Below are positions 4,581 through 55,785 of a stretch of DNA of 64,000 nucleotides, one piece after another (positions within the stretch are counted from its first letter, which is position 1; the number at the start of each line of letters is the position of its first letter). The notes beneath the pieces were generated by a model. It was given only the letters and a program-made list of their open reading frames with translations, did not search any database and was not told the DNA's origin. A program made the translations under genes and the position numbers. The stretch lies in assembly GCA_035556655.1 (NCBI GenBank), contig DATMFW010000069.1, positions 3,971 through 67,970 of the forward strand. Reading direction: 5' to 3'. Source of the stretch: Pseudolysinimonas sp. (GTDB lineage: Bacteria; Actinomycetota; Actinomycetes; Actinomycetales; Microbacteriaceae).

Positions 4581-4651
4581 GGTCGAGTAGCCGCGACGCG
4601 GCGTGTCGAGCCCCTACGGTGGTCTCGACACGCCCGTCGGGCTACTCGACC
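4581..4651. repeat. Inverted pair of the 32-bp GGTCGAGTAG...GTCGAGACC repeat unit (REP-like), forming a ~30-bp hairpin
   Basis: Forward unit at 4581-4614 (GGTCGAGTAGCCGCGACGCGGCGTGTCGAGCCCC). At 4621-4651 the reverse complement reads GGTCGAGTAGCCCGACGGGCGTGTCGAGACC. Lies 10 nt after the binding-protein stop. Confidence 0.8.
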
Positions 4652-4683
4652 GGCAACCACACACAGAAAGCACACCGATATCC

Positions 4684-6000
4684 ATGAGCGAGTCCCTCGC
4701 TTACGAACTCGACCGCGCCCACGTCTTCCACTCGTGGTCCGCACAGGGCTCGCTGAAGCCCTTCATCATCGCCGGCGCCGAAGGCGTCGAGGTCTGGGAC
4801 GAGGAGGGCACCCGCTACCTCGACTTCTCCAGCCAGCTGGTGAACACCAACCTCGGGCACCTGCACCCGAAGGTCGTCAAGGCGATCCAGGACCAGGCCG
4901 CGTTGCTGCCGACGATCGCCCCCGCGCACGGGAACCTCGCCCGTGGGGAGGCCGCCAAGCGCATCCTGGCGAAGGCCGGGGCGCACTTCGGCAAGGTGTT
5001 CTTCACCAACGGAGGCGCCGACGCGAACGAGAACGCGATGCGCATGGCGCGCATCGTCTCGGGGCGCGACAAGATCCTCACCCACTACCGCAGCTATCAC
5101 GGCAACACGGGTGCCGCGGTGGTCGCCACCGGCGACTGGCGCCGGGTCCCGAACGAGTACTCGCGCGGCCACGTGCACTTCTTCGGCCCGTTCCCGTACC
5201 GCTCGGAGTTCTGGTCGGACTCGCCGGCACAGGAGAGCGAGCGCGCCCTGCACCACCTCGAGCGCATCATCCAGGTCGAGGGCCCGTCCTCGATCGCGGC
5301 GATCCTCGTCGAGGGGGTTCCGGGCACCGCCGGTGTGCTGGTTCCGCCGCCCGGCTACCTCACCGGCCTGCGCGAGCTCGCGGACCGCTACGGCATCTTC
5401 CTCATCATCGACGAGGTCATGTCGGGCTTCGGCCGTACCGGCGACTGGTTCGCCTGGCAGAACCCGGTGGTGAACCCGGATGGCGTGGTGCCCGATCTGG
5501 TGACCTTCGCCAAGGGCGTGAACTCCGGCTACGTCCCGGTCGGCGGGGTGATCATCTCGGAGTCGATCGCGAACGCGTTCGAGGACCAGGTGTTCCCCGG
5601 CGGTCTGACCTACTCGGGCCACCCGCTGGCGATGGCTTCGATCGTGGCGTCGATCGACGCCATGGAGGACGAGGGCGTCATCGAGAACGCGCGCCGGATC
5701 GGCGAGGACGTGCTCGGCCCCGGCCTTGCCAAGCTGGCCGAGAAGCACGAGATGATCGGCGAGGTCCGCGGACTCGGGGTGTTCTGGGCGCTCGACCTCG
5801 TGCAAGACCGCGCCACTCGCGAACCGGTCGCTCCGGCCACCATCGGCCGGCTGAAGACCGAGCTGATGTCGCGGGGGCTGCTGCCCTTCGCGGCCGACAA
5901 CCGCATCCACGTGGTGCCGCCCTGCACGGTCACCGATGCCGATGTCGAGAAGGCGCTCGCGATCTACGACGAGGCGTTCACGGCGGTCGGTGCCAGCTGA
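4684..6000 (+). CDS. class III (omega) aminotransferase, PLP-dependent
   Basis: DEVMSGFGRTGDWFA and TFAKG (PLP lysine) motifs. ATG at residue 28 of ORF 4603..6000 is preferred because the upstream residues are encoded by the repeat element. Confidence 0.85.
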   Translation: MSESLAYELDRAHVFHSWSAQGSLKPFIIAGAEGVEVWDEEGTRYLDFSSQLVNTNLGHLHPKVVKAIQDQAALLPTIAPAHGNLARGEAAKRILAKAGAHFGKVFFTNGGADANENAMRMARIVSGRDKILTHYRSYHGNTGAAVVATGDWRRVPNEYSRGHVHFFGPFPYRSEFWSDSPAQESERALHHLERIIQVEGPSSIAAILVEGVPGTAGVLVPPPGYLTGLRELADRYGIFLIIDEVMSGFGRTGDWFAWQNPVVNPDGVVPDLVTFAKGVNSGYVPVGGVIISESIANAFEDQVFPGGLTYSGHPLAMASIVASIDAMEDEGVIENARRIGEDVLGPGLAKLAEKHEMIGEVRGLGVFWALDLVQDRATREPVAPATIGRLKTELMSRGLLPFAADNRIHVVPPCTVTDADVEKALAIYDEAFTAVGAS

Positions 6001-6008
6001 CCCCTCCT

Positions 6009-6071
6009 CCGTTGTGCAGGAACTCTGAGCCGGGTGCGCCGACTCCGGGCTCGGAGTCTCCTGCACGACGG
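6009..6071 (+). terminator. Long imperfect hairpin downstream of the aminotransferase gene
   Basis: CCGTTGTGCAGGAACTCTGAGCCGGG ... CCGGGCTCGGAGTCTCCTGCACGACGG. About 24 of 26 positions pair. No clear U-tract. Confidence 0.45.
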
Positions 6072-6101
6072 CGAAGTCCTGCACAACGGGTGGGGCACGC
6101 G

Positions 6102-6107
6102 TAAACT
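6102..6107 (+). promoter_or_regulatory. -10-like TAAACT, 8 nt upstream of GTG 6116
   Basis: TANNNT hexamer at leaderless spacing. Confidence 0.35.
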
Positions 6108-6115
6108 CTCCCCTC

Positions 6116-54378: not shown

Positions 54379-54386
54379 GCGGCACG

Positions 54387-54392
54387 TAGGCT
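54387..54392 (+). promoter_or_regulatory. -10-like TAGGCT, 7 nt upstream of ATG 54400
   Basis: TANNNT at leaderless spacing. Confidence 0.45.
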
Positions 54393-54399
54393 GGGGGAC

Positions 54400-54699
54400 A
54401 TGCCCCGTTCGAACCGCCCGCGCCGCCGCGGACCGGCCGACGAGGCCCCGGAGCTCGACCTCGAACGCGCCCTGCTCGGCCGGCTGCACACCGAGGCCAA
54501 GCGCGACGGGATCTGGAACGTCCAGCCGCACGGTGCAAGCTCGGCGGTCAAGACCTACATCTGCCCGGGTTGTGCCGGAGAGATCGCCGCGGGTACCGCG
54601 CACGTGGTCGCCTGGCGGGCCGACGGCATCATGGGCGAAGCCGACGACCTGGCCGGTCGCCGGCACTGGCACAGCCGCTGCTGGAAGATCCGGTCGTGA
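54400..54699 (+). CDS. conserved hypothetical small protein with CPGC...HxHxxC metal-binding-like motif
   Basis: YICPGCAGEI...RRHWHSRCW. Coding-like composition. Coupled to the next gene (GTGA). Confidence 0.6.
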   Translation: MPRSNRPRRRGPADEAPELDLERALLGRLHTEAKRDGIWNVQPHGASSAVKTYICPGCAGEIAAGTAHVVAWRADGIMGEADDLAGRRHWHSRCWKIRS

Positions 54700-55421
54700 C
54701 GACCGAGATCGCCGGCAGCGTCGTACTGCCCGCCGTGCGCGAAGACATCGAGCTGCAGACCGCGGACGGCCTGACCCTCGTCGGCGAGCTGGCGAGCCCC
54801 GCCGCGACGGCGCCCGTGGCGACCCTGGTCTGCCTGCACCCGCTGCCGACCCACGGCGGGTTCATGGACTCGCACATCCTGCGCAAGGCCGCCGCCCGGC
54901 TGCCGGCGCTCGCCGATCTCGCGGTGCTGCGCTTCAATACCCGGGGCACCTCGTCTCCGCGCGGTACCTCGCAGGGGACCTTCGACGGGGGCGAGTCCGA
55001 GCGGCACGACGTCGCGGCCGCGATGGCGTTCGTCGCCGGGCGCGGGCTGCCGGCGCCCTGGCTGCTCGGCTGGTCGTTCGGCACCGAGCTGGTGCTGAAG
55101 TACGGTTTCGCGCACCCGATCGCCGGCGCGATCCTGCTCTCGCCGCCGCTGCACCGGGCGACGGATGCCGAGGTCGCCGCCTGGGCGGGAGCCCCGGTTC
55201 CGCTCGTCGCGCTCATCCCCGAGCTCGACGACTATCTGCAGCCGGCCGAGGCCGCCGAGCGGTTCGCGTCGGTTCCGCACATCCAGCTGGTCGCCGTCGA
55301 GGGCGGCAGGCACCTCTGGGTGGGCGAGAATCAGACCAGGCGGGTGCTGAACGAGATCGTGTCGCGGGTCAACCCCGCCGCCGCGCCGCTGCCGACGACC
55401 TGGGAGGGTCCGCTGTCATGA
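54696..55421 (+). CDS. alpha/beta hydrolase fold protein
   Basis: GWSFG nucleophile-elbow motif. GTG overlaps the upstream stop. Confidence 0.7.
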   Translation: MTTEIAGSVVLPAVREDIELQTADGLTLVGELASPAATAPVATLVCLHPLPTHGGFMDSHILRKAAARLPALADLAVLRFNTRGTSSPRGTSQGTFDGGESERHDVAAAMAFVAGRGLPAPWLLGWSFGTELVLKYGFAHPIAGAILLSPPLHRATDAEVAAWAGAPVPLVALIPELDDYLQPAEAAERFASVPHIQLVAVEGGRHLWVGENQTRRVLNEIVSRVNPAAAPLPTTWEGPLS

Positions 55422-55726
55422 AGTCCGTCACCCCGCAGCAGTTCGCCGCGCTCGAGGGCGCCGCGCTGATCGATGTGCGCGAGCCGGCCGAGCTGGACGA
55501 GGTGCGGACCGCGCAGGGGGTCCCGATCCCGATGAGCGGGTTCCTCGACCGGCTCGGTGAGCTGCCCGAGGGGCCGCTTTATGTGCTCTGCCGGTCGGGT
55601 GCGCGCAGCGCCCGGGTGACCGAGTACCTCGAGCAGCAGGGCTACGACGCGACGAACATCGACGGAGGCATCATGGCCTGGGAGGCCGCGGGACTCCCGG
55701 TGCTGCGCGGCCCGGTGGTCGAGTAG
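55418..55726 (+). CDS. single-domain rhodanese sulfurtransferase
   Basis: Active-site loop CRSGARS. ATGA overlap with the hydrolase gene. Confidence 0.85.
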   Translation: MKSVTPQQFAALEGAALIDVREPAELDEVRTAQGVPIPMSGFLDRLGELPEGPLYVLCRSGARSARVTEYLEQQGYDATNIDGGIMAWEAAGLPVLRGPVVE

Positions 55727-55785
55727 CCGCTGACTCTCGGTGCTCGAGTAGCCGCGAAGCGGCGTATCGAGACCCGGAGACCCCG
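55717..55785 (+). repeat. half unit plus full unit of the dispersed repeat at the rhodanese / AI-2E convergent junction
   Basis: GGTCGAGTAGCCGC ... GCTCGAGTAGCCGCGAAGCGGCGTATCGAGACCCGGAGACCCCG. The rhodanese TAG lies inside the half unit. Confidence 0.8.

What the first reader, a model, noticed from the sequence alone, without database searches (positions are those of the whole stretch)
4581..55785. Dispersed ~32-bp hairpin repeat family (consensus GGTCGAGTAGCCGCGAAGCGGCGTGTCGAGACC) with covarying central stem
Copies occur at six loci. Forward units: 4581-4614, 15299-15339, 15340-15377 and 55742-55774, plus half units at 15281-15298 and 55717-55730. Inverted units: 4621-4651 and 46557-46587. 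There is a hairpin-less remnant at 36151-36176 and an in-frame array in smc at 14494-14598. The flanks (GGTCGAGTAG ... GTGTCGAGACC) are conserved. The centre is always a mini-hairpin, but the stem sequence differs between copies: GCCGC-GAA-GCGGC, GCCGC-GAC-GCGGC, GCCC-GAC-GGGC, GCGC-GAA-GCGC and GCGACGC-GGAA-GCGTCGC. Stem changes that keep complementarity argue for selection on structure. That structure could be an RNA 3'-end or terminator element, or an ssDNA hairpin recognised by a REP-type transposase. Apart from the smc-internal array, every copy sits at or directly after a gene 3' end. No transposase gene is present in this window.
Basis: seen in the sequence. Interest (0 to 1): 0.75.

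Follow-up and report, generated by a model that had tools for sequence, protein, structure and literature searches.

The report
Cross-phylum GTAG hairpin repeat family
The window carries seven full copies, plus several partial ones, of a roughly 40-base folding DNA repeat that looks like the "REP" selfish elements of E. coli, but it belongs to an apparently undescribed family with near-identical arms in Actinobacteria and Chloroflexi, it donates stop codons to genes, and no enzyme that copies it has been found.

Summary

The family is much larger than the window. There are more than 300 model hits in Microbacteriaceae, Nocardioides, Gordonia, Propionibacteriales, many Anaerolineales MAGs and some IMG/VR contigs. 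Syntenic DNA of close relatives is almost free of it (8 hits in 582 kb).

The consensus is YGNTGG-TCGAGTAG-[variable hairpin]-GTATCGAGACC. Both the central stem and an outer helix (GGUC/GACC) covary, and 97.6% of cells are paired. G.A and G.T mismatches and GNA triloops mark the GTAG strand as the strand that folds.

The organisation matches GTAG-type REP/REPIN elements:
- GTAG sits at the stem foot.
- Copies lie at gene 3' ends.
- Head-to-head dimers predominate.
- Tandem half-unit arrays occur.
- Orthologous sites are filled in some genomes and empty in others.
- In-frame copies occur inside genes; the smc copy is shared only with a Pseudolysinimonas MAG.

The units are not canonical terminators, because they lack a T-tract. 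No Rfam family matches. No RAYT-like gene was found. Six Chloroflexota RAYT loci carry other REPs.

Verdict: a new variant of a known kind, with the mobilising enzyme unknown.

The parts
4577..4613 (+). Full unit and left arm of a head-to-head (GTAG outside) dimer. It lies 7 nt after the TAA stop of the NMT1-family gene (3410-4570). The stem is GCCGC-GAC-GCGGC. The 3' arm is degenerate (GAGCCC).
   Evidence: (47.6 bits)
4621..4655 (-). Inverted full unit and right arm of the dimer, with stem GCCC-GAC-GGGC. Together with 4577-4613 it folds into one long hairpin (-68.6 kcal/mol, z -9.5), upstream of the aminotransferase gene that starts at 4684.
   Evidence: (49.9 bits)
14494..14603 (+). In-frame array inside smc. 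It has two 30-nt left-half units plus one full unit with stem GCGACGC-GGAA-GCGTCGC. It encodes PSGSSSDAEE-type repeats in the hypervariable SMC linker.
   Evidence: (39.4 bits)
15281..15298 (+). 3'-arm-only half unit (GGGTCGAGACC plus spacer). It is the first, partial copy of the 41-nt tandem array and is translated as the C-terminal tail of SMC.
15299..15339 (+). Full unit. Its GTAG supplies the smc stop codon (TAG 15310-15312).
   Evidence: 46 bits
15340..15380 (+). Full unit with a CCTA tail. The CTA at 15378-15380 is the stop codon of the convergent alpha-amylase-family gene on the minus strand. The whole smc/amylase spacer is element DNA.
   Evidence: 54.5 bits
36151..36176 (+). Hairpin-less remnant (GAGTAG-CGGTG-GTCGAGACC-CCTA). 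Its TAG (36156-58) stops the DUF2469 gene. Its CTA (36174-76) stops the convergent minus-strand gene.
   Evidence: 14.1 bits, E 0.075
46557..46592 (-). Inverted full unit with left arm TCGAGCAG and stem GCGC-GAA-GCGC. It directly abuts the TAG stop of tsf (45729-46556). Relatives have a canonical hairpin plus T-tract terminator at this site instead.
   Evidence: (52.5 bits)
55717..55730 (+). 5'-arm half unit (GGTCGAGTAGCCGC). Its TAG (55724-26) is the stop codon of the rhodanese-domain ORF 54176-55726.
55737..55779 (+). Full unit (GCTCGAGTAG...GTATCGAGACC) lying between convergent genes. The AI-2E transporter gene on the minus strand stops at 55786.
   Evidence: (58 bits)

Best explanation
This is a family of REP/REPIN-type miniature repeats of the GTAG-tagged kind.

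**What is shown.**
- One strand of each roughly 40-nt unit, the strand carrying GTAG, folds into an irregular hairpin.
- The hairpin has a 4-bp outer helix (GGUC/GACC), a tandem G.A pair in a C-GA-G context, one G:C pair, a conserved asymmetric loop (UA / GUAU), and a stem-loop whose sequence is free but which is usually capped by a GNA triloop.
- A conserved single-stranded YGNT precedes the hairpin.
- Copy number is lineage-specific, and orthologous sites are filled in some genomes and empty in others.

**What is inferred.**
- A trans-acting enzyme reads the invariant arms and loops on the folded single strand and copies or moves the unit. The most likely form of that strand is ssDNA, and the most likely enzyme is an HUH/Y1 (RAYT- or IS200-like) nuclease.
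- Copies persist where they do least harm: just after ORFs, in convergent spacers and in disordered protein linkers.
- When a copy lands in the last codons of a gene, the built-in TAG (and, in this genome, a CTA tail on the other strand) becomes the new stop codon.
- Replication slippage then amplifies half units into 30- or 41-nt arrays.
- Any effect of the hairpin on mRNA 3' ends is a secondary consequence.
For: **Family and structure**
- The family is real and large: 209, 99 and 7 model hits.
- P2 pairs show 13-42 double changes each. P1 covaries, with G:C to A:U 12 times and C:G to U:A 5 times. 97.6% of cells are paired, against 28-53% when the partner is slid.

**The GTAG strand is the folding strand**
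- G.A mismatches number 114 against 22 C.T. G.T number 66 against 29 A.C.
- The forward strand is the more stable one in 194 of 208 units. For the variable centre alone the count is 94 against 38.
- GNA triloops number 30 against 2 TNC.

**REP hallmarks, as defined in PMC3733652**
- GTAG sits at the stem foot.
- Units lie at 3' ends. 103 of 158 have a same-strand stop within 400 nt upstream, and 85 of 158 have a convergent stop downstream.
- There are 34 HH dimers, 14 TT and 15 HT, with spacers of 1-50 nt.
- Clusters and nested copies occur.
- Intragenic in-frame copies occur.

**Mobility-like distribution**
- The window has 7 units in 64 kb. Syntenic DNA of relatives has 8 in 582 kb.
- L131 is filled where L121, the window and L141 are empty.
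- The smc 3' end is filled in the window and empty in L231.
- The smc-internal unit is shared only with the closest relative among 24 SMCs.

**Reader of the arms**
- The arms are identical in genomes of 40% to 70% GC. This argues for a sequence-specific reader.
Against: - No cognate enzyme was found. There is no RAYT hit in any ORF of about 2 Mb of loci, by phmmer or by a profile of 121 RAYTs.
- Six Chloroflexota RAYT loci are flanked by other GTAG REPs and by none of these units.
- tblastn with RayT against 72,556 plasmids gave no actinobacterial hit.
- PMC6006769 reports only IS200-type Y1 genes in Actinobacteridae.
- Hypervariable stems within one genome and near-invariant arms across phyla are atypical of REPINs, which form near-clonal populations.
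- No clean target-site or end definition was obtained, because the closest relatives are only about 84-88% identical at the protein level.
- Orientation is biased toward the sense of the upstream gene (45:27 overall; 15:5 under a stricter filter). An RNA role would also predict this bias.
Confidence: 0.55

Rival explanations
1. The unit is primarily an RNA element of mRNA 3' ends. In this view the folded GTAG-strand transcript, with its conserved GA-rich internal loops, binds a conserved protein, or blocks 3' exonucleases, or terminates transcription without a U-tract, much as proposed for mycobacterial TRIT. It is kept by selection for that role.
For: - The structure is strand-specific, with G.U wobbles and tandem G.A pairs.
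- Units cluster at or over stop codons. The unit TAG is the stop codon in 12 of 158 units, and many others lie 11-60 nt after a stop.
- Orientation is biased toward the sense strand, 45:27 and 15:5.
- The first 20 kb of the window has no excess of canonical terminators, 4 against 3.3 expected.
- TRIT is a precedent in Actinobacteria (PMC3152330).
- At tsf, the unit sits where relatives have a canonical terminator.
Against: - At least a quarter to a third of units are antisense to the only nearby gene.
- Almost half occur as inverted dimers.
- Units occur inside ORFs on either strand.
- There is no T-tract.
- Most close relatives lack the units at the same junctions, so they are dispensable.
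- C-GNA-G triloops are the classic extra-stable DNA mini-hairpin caps rather than favoured RNA loops (established knowledge, not tested here).
- There is no Rfam match.
Confidence: 0.2
2. The units are the terminal inverted repeats or internal remnants of a larger, still unidentified transposon or MITE. Candidates are the roughly 125-bp CATGCTG...CAGCATG composite seen in Rathayibacter, or an element carrying a DUF222/HNH gene. In this view a non-Y1 enzyme moves them.
For: - Rathayibacter shows composite elements about 125 bp long, bounded by inverted units with extended CATGCTG termini.
- DUF222/HNH genes occur in 8 of 119 unit-bearing loci, several of them directly flanked by units.
- No RAYT was found.
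Against: - Single units are as common as dimers, 65 against 64.
- DUF222 does not explain the Chloroflexi copies.
- No gene family recurs next to the units in the 30 low-GC loci.
- Units upstream of HNH genes follow the general pattern of sitting downstream of the preceding gene.
Confidence: 0.12
3. The units are a non-mobile, structure-specific binding or recombination site for a conserved host protein. Examples would be a topoisomerase or gyrase, a nucleoid protein, or a Xer- or integrase-like enzyme acting on folded DNA as at attC. In this view the site arose repeatedly or spread by gene conversion.
For: - The arms and unpaired bases are invariant across phyla, while the stem is free.
- This resembles the architecture of attC, with conserved paired boxes, a variable centre and a strand-specific fold (established knowledge).
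- E. coli BIMEs bind IHF and gyrase (established knowledge).
Against: - The taxonomic distribution is patchy and lineage-specific, and most close relatives lack the units.
- Nested copies, dimers and tandem half-unit arrays are typical of selfish spread.
- The attC core GTTRRRY is absent from the consensus.
- No recombinase gene recurs nearby.
Confidence: 0.08
4. The repeat is ordinary conserved coding sequence or low-complexity GC-rich DNA that recurs by chance.
For: One array is translated inside smc, and two genes end inside units.
Against: - Shuffles give zero matches.
- 23 of 24 SMC homologues lack the internal sequence, and it lies in a hypervariable linker.
- The same unit occurs in genomes of 40% GC.
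Confidence: 0.01

Closest known systems
GTAG-tagged REP / BIME / REPIN elements (E. coli REP, Pseudomonas REPINs, Stenotrophomonas SMAGs; PMC3733652, PMC3116915)
   Same: - Short imperfect palindrome with GTAG at the 5' foot of the stem.
- Hundreds of dispersed copies, mostly after ORFs in convergent or unidirectional spacers.
- Singles, head-to-head dimers (the preferred form), tail-to-tail dimers and clusters.
- G.T pairs that mark one strand.
- Copies inside genes, often genes of DNA maintenance.
- Strong differences in copy number between related lineages.
   Different: - Extra conserved arms (YGNTGG-TCGAG ... GTATCGAGACC) form a second, covarying helix with a tandem G.A pair.
- The stem sequence is hypervariable within one genome, whereas REPINs form near-clonal populations.
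- The arms are almost identical across phyla.
- The hosts include Actinobacteria, for which no GTAG REPs are listed (PMC3733652) and no RAYTs are reported (PMC6006769).
- No REPtron was found.
TRIT (Tuberculosis Rho-independent terminator motif) of Mycobacterium (PMC3152330)
   Same: - An actinobacterial, palindromic element conserved in both sequence and structure.
- About 150 copies.
- It sits at gene termini in a narrow window that overlaps the stop codon.
- It lacks a canonical U-tract, and a protein reader has been proposed.
   Different: - TRIT is reported as restricted to Mycobacterium.
- Its sequence could not be compared here, because it appears only in a figure.
- The present family also occurs inverted, in dimers and inside ORFs.
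MIRU / VNTR-type intergenic repeats of mycobacteria (from general knowledge)
   Same: - Tandem arrays with periods of 30-41 nt that vary in copy number between relatives.
- The repeats overlap the stop codons of flanking genes.
   Different: MIRUs are 40-100 bp units without the GTAG-hairpin architecture, and they are not known as inverted dimers.
Rickettsia palindromic elements (RPE; CGTC-tagged REPs in PMC3733652)
   Same: Palindromic repeats inserted in frame into protein-coding genes and translated as extra peptide segments.
   Different: They carry a different tag (CGTC) and a different sequence, are much longer, and occur in Alphaproteobacteria.
Integron attC sites (from general knowledge)
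   Same: - Conserved paired boxes flank a variable centre.
- Function depends on one folded single strand with unpaired bases.
- They are located at the 3' ends of ORFs.
   Different: The units have no GTTRRRY/RYYYAAC cores, no cassette arrays and no integrase nearby. Integrons are not known in Actinobacteria.

Membership tests
GTAG-type REP / REPIN | A short (20-40 nt) imperfect palindrome that forms a stem-loop | tested here: met
   Units are 29-45 nt. The P2 stem is 4-9 bp. 97.6% of the modelled pair cells are standard pairs.
GTAG-type REP / REPIN | GTAG or GTGG tetranucleotide 0-2 nt 5' of the stem | tested here: met
   GTAG is invariant or nearly so in the alignment, and its last G closes P2. 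The exception in the window is GCAG at 46557-46592.
GTAG-type REP / REPIN | High copy number, dispersed, mainly extragenic and downstream of ORFs (convergent or unidirectional spacers) | tested here: met
   7 full units lie at 5 of the 6 element loci in 64 kb. Context statistics cover 158 units. Whole-genome copy number was not measured.
GTAG-type REP / REPIN | Occurs as inverted dimers (HH preferred), tandem copies and clusters | tested here: met
   HH 34, TT 14, HT 15. Window 4577-4655 is an HH dimer with a 7-nt spacer.
GTAG-type REP / REPIN | A near-identical 'master sequence' population within a genome | tested here: not met
   The 7 units in 64 kb carry five different stems. Loci from one Rathayibacter genome carry at least 6 stem types.
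GTAG-type REP / REPIN | A cognate single-copy RAYT gene flanked by the same REP (a REPtron) | tested here: inconclusive
   There is no RAYT in about 2 Mb of loci. Six Chloroflexota RAYT loci carry other REPs. Whole genomes of unit-rich strains could not be searched.
GTAG-type REP / REPIN | Binding and cleavage of the folded ssDNA by the RAYT; transposition | not testable with these tools
   Needs biochemistry or population sequencing.
Intrinsic (Rho-independent) terminator | A GC-rich hairpin immediately followed by a U/T tract, oriented with the transcript | tested here: not met
   The consensus after the unit is C/A followed by GC-rich sequence. No unit appears among the terminator-like sites. 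Relatives do have a hairpin plus T-tract after tsf.
TRIT (Mycobacterium) | The specific conserved TRIT sequence/structure model, restricted to Mycobacterium | not tested
   The TRIT consensus is given only in a figure (PMC3152330). It is not in Rfam under a name that matched.
Any Rfam 15 RNA family | A score at or above the family's gathering threshold | tested here: not met
   There were 0 hits in the window. There were no relevant hits at E<=1 in 8 unit-rich loci.
Integron attC | R''/R' core sites (RYYYAAC / GTTRRRY), in cassette arrays next to intI | tested here: not met
   The unit consensus lacks these cores. Copies are dispersed, and no integrase recurs nearby.

The most novel reading that the evidence does not exclude
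The units are the substrate of a not yet recognised, non-RAYT machinery that is shared by, or exchanged between, Actinomycetota and Chloroflexota. This machinery would read an invariant GA-rich irregular helix on a folded single strand and tolerate any stem sequence. That would make it a new replicator/enzyme pair, or a new conserved nucleic-acid-protein recognition module, rather than one more REP family. It would also explain how Actinobacteria, reported to lack RAYTs, acquire REP-like repeats.
Probability: 0.2. Interest if true: 0.8.

Novelty: new variant of a known kind. Interest (0 to 1): 0.6.

Why it matters
REP/REPIN elements are best understood in Proteobacteria, where a domesticated RAYT transposase is thought to copy them. 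A family with the same hallmarks in Actinobacteria would show one of two things. Either RAYT-like enzymes have been missed in Actinobacteria, or REP-like replicators can use another enzyme.

The arms are conserved between phyla that differ by 30% in GC content. The near-invariant arms, with a freely varying stem, define a compact recognition motif that can be tested directly in vitro.

There are also practical consequences:
- The units rewrite gene 3' ends by donating TAG stops on both strands.
- They insert translated peptide repeats into proteins such as SMC.
- They create VNTR-like arrays.
- They may contribute to assembly breaks. Many of the SMC homologues in the protein database are partial; whether the repeats cause this was not tested.

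Annotation pipelines, strain typing and genome assembly for Microbacteriaceae and Anaerolineales should take these effects into account.

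Tried and rejected
1. **Rfam.** Gathering mode on the window and E-value mode on 8 unit-rich loci gave nothing relevant.
2. **Literature search by sequence string.** The two 11-mers (GTATCGAGACC, GGTCTCGATAC) occur in none of the 20 papers listed; the shorter strings hit only unrelated papers in that list. 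Keyword searches for REPs in Actinobacteria or Microbacteriaceae found no prior description.
3. **Hunt for the enzyme.**
   - All-against-all clustering of ORFs in 119 loci found only housekeeping families and DUF222/HNH.
   - phmmer with E. coli RayT and a profile of 121 RAYTs found nothing.
   - tblastn of RayT against PLSDB found no actinobacterial hit.
   - Six Chloroflexota RAYT loci were fetched. All are flanked by other GTAG REPs (GTAGGGTGCGC, GTAGGTCGGGG, GTAGGGTGAGG and similar) and by no unit.
4. **Exact insertion ends or target duplication from orthologous junctions.** The relatives are too diverged (EF-Ts at most 88%, SMC at most 84%), so only coarse filled/empty calls were possible.
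5. **Extension of the outer helix beyond GGUC/GACC.** The signal is weak in low-GC hosts and absent in high-GC hosts.
6. **Alternative register TCGA:TCGA for the arms.** Rejected, because the observed compensatory changes (GGTT/AACC and GATC/GATC) fit only the GGUC/GACC register.
7. **Replication-strand bias from local GC skew.** The result (25 against 52) is noisy and conflicts with the gene-orientation bias, so it was left uninterpreted.
8. **k-turn, sarcin-ricin, tRNA-like and CRISPR-repeat readings.** Considered by inspection and dropped, since there is no 3-nt bulge, no spacers and no Rfam support.
9. **Cultured phages (INPHARED).** They carry no unit.
10. **megablast of smc against plasmids.** Uninformative.
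11. **Exact-protein look-up of the DUF2469 protein.** Not on record.

Full report
**1. Observation**

The 33-mer consensus with up to three mismatches occurs four times, against none in 100 dinucleotide-preserving shuffles. The 9-mer TCGAGTAGC occurs nine times against 0.28 expected.

A covariance model (R1) was built from 61 copies, 56 from other genomes and 5 from the window. With filters off it finds seven full units in the window at 39-58 bits. The next hit scores 16.8 bits, so the list of full units is complete. The hairpin-less remnant at 36158-36177 is borderline (14.1 bits, E 0.075).

TRF reports a 30-nt x3.0 array at 14494-14582 and a 41-nt x2.3 array at 15282-15376.

**2. Gene context in the window**

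Pfam confirms the flanking genes: NMT1-family binding protein, class-III aminotransferase, SMC, an alpha-amylase-family enzyme (minus strand), DUF2469, EF-Ts, a rhodanese-domain protein and an AI-2E transporter (minus strand).

The unit's own TAG (GTCGAG-TAG) is the stop codon of three genes:
- smc, at 15310-12
- the rhodanese-domain ORF, at 55724-26
- the DUF2469 gene, at 36156-58

In this genome the unit is followed by C(C)CTA. That CTA is the stop codon of the convergent genes at 15378-80 and 36174-76. The smc/amylase and DUF2469/neighbour spacers therefore consist only of element DNA.

At tsf an inverted unit abuts the stop codon. In about twenty relatives the same position holds a classic GC hairpin followed by a T-tract.

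**3. The family outside the window**

One scan of 185,579 species-representative genomes used the pattern TCGAGTAG-N9-20-GTRTCGAGACC. They came from:
- Microbacteriaceae (Rathayibacter, Agromyces, Cryobacterium, Leifsonia, Pseudolysinimonas and others)
- Nocardioides, Gordonia, Micropruina and Aestuariimicrobium
- about 30 loci of 40-59% GC, labelled Anaerolineales, Chloroflexota or Dehalococcoidia, plus one labelled Bacteroidota

The 155 exact matches have 114 different centres, and nearly all of them are hairpins.

Model R1 finds 209 copies in L001-L100. It finds 99 more in L101-L119, 29 IMG/VR stretches and a Rathayibacter plasmid.

By contrast, 80 metagenome loci syntenic with the window's tsf region hold only eight hits, and only one of those lies just downstream of tsf. 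These loci total 582 kb, with EF-Ts 72-88% identical to the window's. The family is therefore patchy and expanded in particular lineages.

The best SMC matches place the window near Pseudolysinimonas and Rhodoglobus in the Microbacteriaceae.

**4. Anatomy**

Position frequencies give the unit as Y G N T G G - TCGAGTAG - [hairpin] - GTATCGAGACC - (C/A). G at -5 is 93-99% conserved in both high- and low-GC hosts.

The central stem (P2) covaries strongly. Each of four pairs shows 13-24 double changes among 61 sequences and 30-42 among 96.

The arms are not merely conserved flanks. GGUC pairs with GACC, and two of these pairs show compensatory changes: G:C to A:U 12 times (the GATC...GATC variants) and C:G to U:A 5 times (the TTGAG...TCGAAACC variants). 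There are also U.G wobbles. Overall, 97.6% of cells are paired, against 28-53% when the partner is slid by one to three columns.

Between the two helices lie a tandem G.A in a C-GA-G context, one G:C pair and a conserved UA/GUAU loop. The same C-GA-G module recurs inside many P2 stems, for example CGAGGAACGAGC.

**5. Which strand folds**

Several counts mark the GTAG strand as the structural strand:
- In stem positions, G.A or A.G occurs 114 times against 22 for C.T or T.C.
- G.T or T.G occurs 66 times against 29 for A.C or C.A.
- The variable centre alone is more stable on the GTAG strand in 94 units against 38 (RNA parameters, p=4e-5) and in 81 against 56 (DNA parameters, p=0.003).
- Among simple triloops, 30 are GNA and 2 are the complementary TNC.

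C-GNA-G is the classic extra-stable DNA mini-hairpin cap, as in d(GCGAAGC). That is established knowledge and was not tested here. It leans toward a DNA-level fold without proving it.

**6. Organisation**

Among 158 units in high-GC loci:
- 103 have a same-strand gene stop within 400 nt upstream.
- 85 have a convergent stop within 400 nt downstream.
- 12 use the unit's TAG as the stop codon.
- 8 have the convergent stop 0-3 nt after the unit.

Orientation relative to the only nearby gene is 45 sense to 27 antisense. Under a stricter filter it is 15 to 5, with 15 more units in tight convergent spacers.

About half of the units have an inverted partner within 120 nt. Head-to-head (GTAG outside) dimers number 34, tail-to-tail 14 and head-to-tail 15. 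The window's 4577-4655 pair is a head-to-head dimer that folds at -68.6 kcal/mol.

Other arrangements:
- Rathayibacter has a composite about 125 bp long, bounded by CATGCTG...CAGCATG.
- Some Anaerolineales loci carry one unit nested in the loop of an inverted one (L012, L083, L099).

**7. Presence and absence, and coding copies**

- L131 carries an inverted unit plus two 33-nt half-unit repeats between convergent genes. L121, the window and L141 have 11-60 unrelated bases at that site.
- The smc-internal copy lies in a hypervariable linker between the conserved YGP(D/E)VPVP and PF(D/V)R motifs. Of 24 SMC homologues, only the closest (P0049, a Pseudolysinimonas MAG, 84% identical) has it, as a single unit encoding RSSSDAEASRIET. 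The window has expanded it with two further half units.
- The SMC C-terminal tail RVETAQRVE* replaces the usual (E)RAS* ending. It is absent in L231, whose smc ends without any unit.
- Five related IMG/VR contigs carry 1, 2 or 5 copies of a 30-nt half unit inside an ORF on the opposite strand.
- In L082 a unit interrupts a DUF222/HNH gene.

**8. What it is not**

- No Rfam 15 family matches.
- No T-run follows the units, and none appears among the terminator-like sites, so they are not canonical intrinsic terminators.
- The attC cores are absent.
- Cultured phages carry no copy.

**9. Comparison with what is known**

The anatomy and organisation match the GTAG-tagged REP superfamily as defined by Di Nocera et al. 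(PMC3733652):
- GTAG at one end of a short stem-loop
- location mostly downstream of ORFs, between convergent or unidirectional genes
- HH dimers preferred
- clusters
- G.T pairs

That survey lists no Actinobacteria and no Anaerolineales strain. Quentin et al. state that Actinobacteridae carry only IS200-type (subclass 1.1) Y1 genes (PMC6006769). RAYT group 4 is known in Caldilineae (PMC5581495).

TRIT of Mycobacterium is the nearest actinobacterial analogue at the level of gene termini (PMC3152330).

**10. Search for the enzyme**

- ORF clustering found no recurrent transposase. DUF222/HNH genes occur in 8 of 119 loci, but they follow the general placement pattern of the units and cannot explain the Chloroflexi copies.
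- E. coli RayT and a profile of 121 RAYTs gave no hit in any ORF of at least 60 aa in the loci.
- RayT tblastn against PLSDB found Chloroflexota but no actinobacterial records.
- Six Chloroflexota RAYT loci (L232, L234, L240, L243, L245, L247) are classic REPtrons, but with other REPs. Model R1 finds no unit there.

About one RAYT-adjacent locus would have been expected by chance in the sample (my estimate, assuming roughly 200 units per genome). The absence is therefore weak evidence.

**11. Verdict**

The best-supported reading (confidence 0.55) is a new family of REP/REPIN-type repeats acting through a strand-specific fold, with the cognate enzyme unknown.

Three features set it apart from typical REPINs and leave room for a new mechanism:
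- hypervariable stems within a single genome
- arms that are near-invariant across phyla
- hosts that include Actinobacteria, which are reported to lack RAYTs

An RNA-level role at 3' ends remains a live rival or an additional function (0.2).

**Caveats**

- The loci were ascertained with an exact-arm pattern, so arm invariance in those copies is partly by construction. The model-based hits relax this.
- Copies are related, so covariation counts are not independent events.
- The taxonomy of the MAG contigs is as labelled by the depositors.

Noticed in passing
window 57369-58238: About 13 copies of a 33-nt (11-codon) periodic repeat lie inside the minus-strand ORF 56874-58799. This looks like a coiled-coil or heptad/hendecad repeat protein (families D1, D5, D6).
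   Followed up: no
window 46596-46634: A perfect 15-bp hairpin (GGGCCGCCTCTCACC / GGTGAGGGGCGGCCC) overlaps the TGA stop (46609-11) of the minus-strand gene. Its upstream arm looks like an inverted copy of the gene's own last codons. The close relative L120 has the gene end but not the inverted arm.
   Followed up: partly
L007, L008, L047, L075, L118; L234 7565-7590 and 7722-7750: Anaerolineales loci hold a second small palindromic element, GTCATTGCGAG...CGAAGCAATC. It often carries the GTAG unit in its loop. It also occurs alone beside a RAYT gene.
   Followed up: no
L023, L064, L072, L079, L082, L093, L100, L107: DUF222/HNH (13E12-type) genes occur in 8 of 119 unit-bearing loci. In L064 the gene is bracketed by units on both sides. 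In L082 a unit sits inside the gene and introduces an in-frame TGA.
   Followed up: partly
L206, L208, L209, L216, L229 (IMG/VR contigs): The same locus carries 1, 2 or 5 copies of a 30-nt half unit in different contigs. This is VNTR-like, in-frame variation within an ORF on the opposite strand. In all, 29 IMG/VR stretches carry units, whereas cultured phages carry none.
   Followed up: partly
L012 7397-7473, L083 7552-7628, L099 42-118: A forward unit is nested exactly in the loop of an inverted unit. Between loci the outer unit is the same but the inner stems differ.
   Followed up: no
L232 11890-11960 and 12555-12925; L234 7530-8000 and 8552-8900: These Chloroflexota RAYT genes are textbook REPtrons, flanked by GTAGGGTGCGC-type REP dimers. 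They are a different REP family from the one studied here.
   Followed up: yes
L083 109-398 (minus strand): A T-box-leader-like match scores 41 bits, below the gathering score of 93. It lies next to a unit in an Anaerolineales-type locus.
   Followed up: no
unit-bearing loci L001-L119 of at least 5 kb, and the window: The units' GTAG strand lies more often on the locally C-rich strand (52 against 25 at |skew|>0.02). This is not reconciled with the sense-orientation bias.
   Followed up: partly
protein hits P0001-P0120: Many of the closest SMC homologues with a source name are labelled 'partial', often on short contigs. Whether the repeats in and after smc cause these assembly breaks was not tested.
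   Followed up: no
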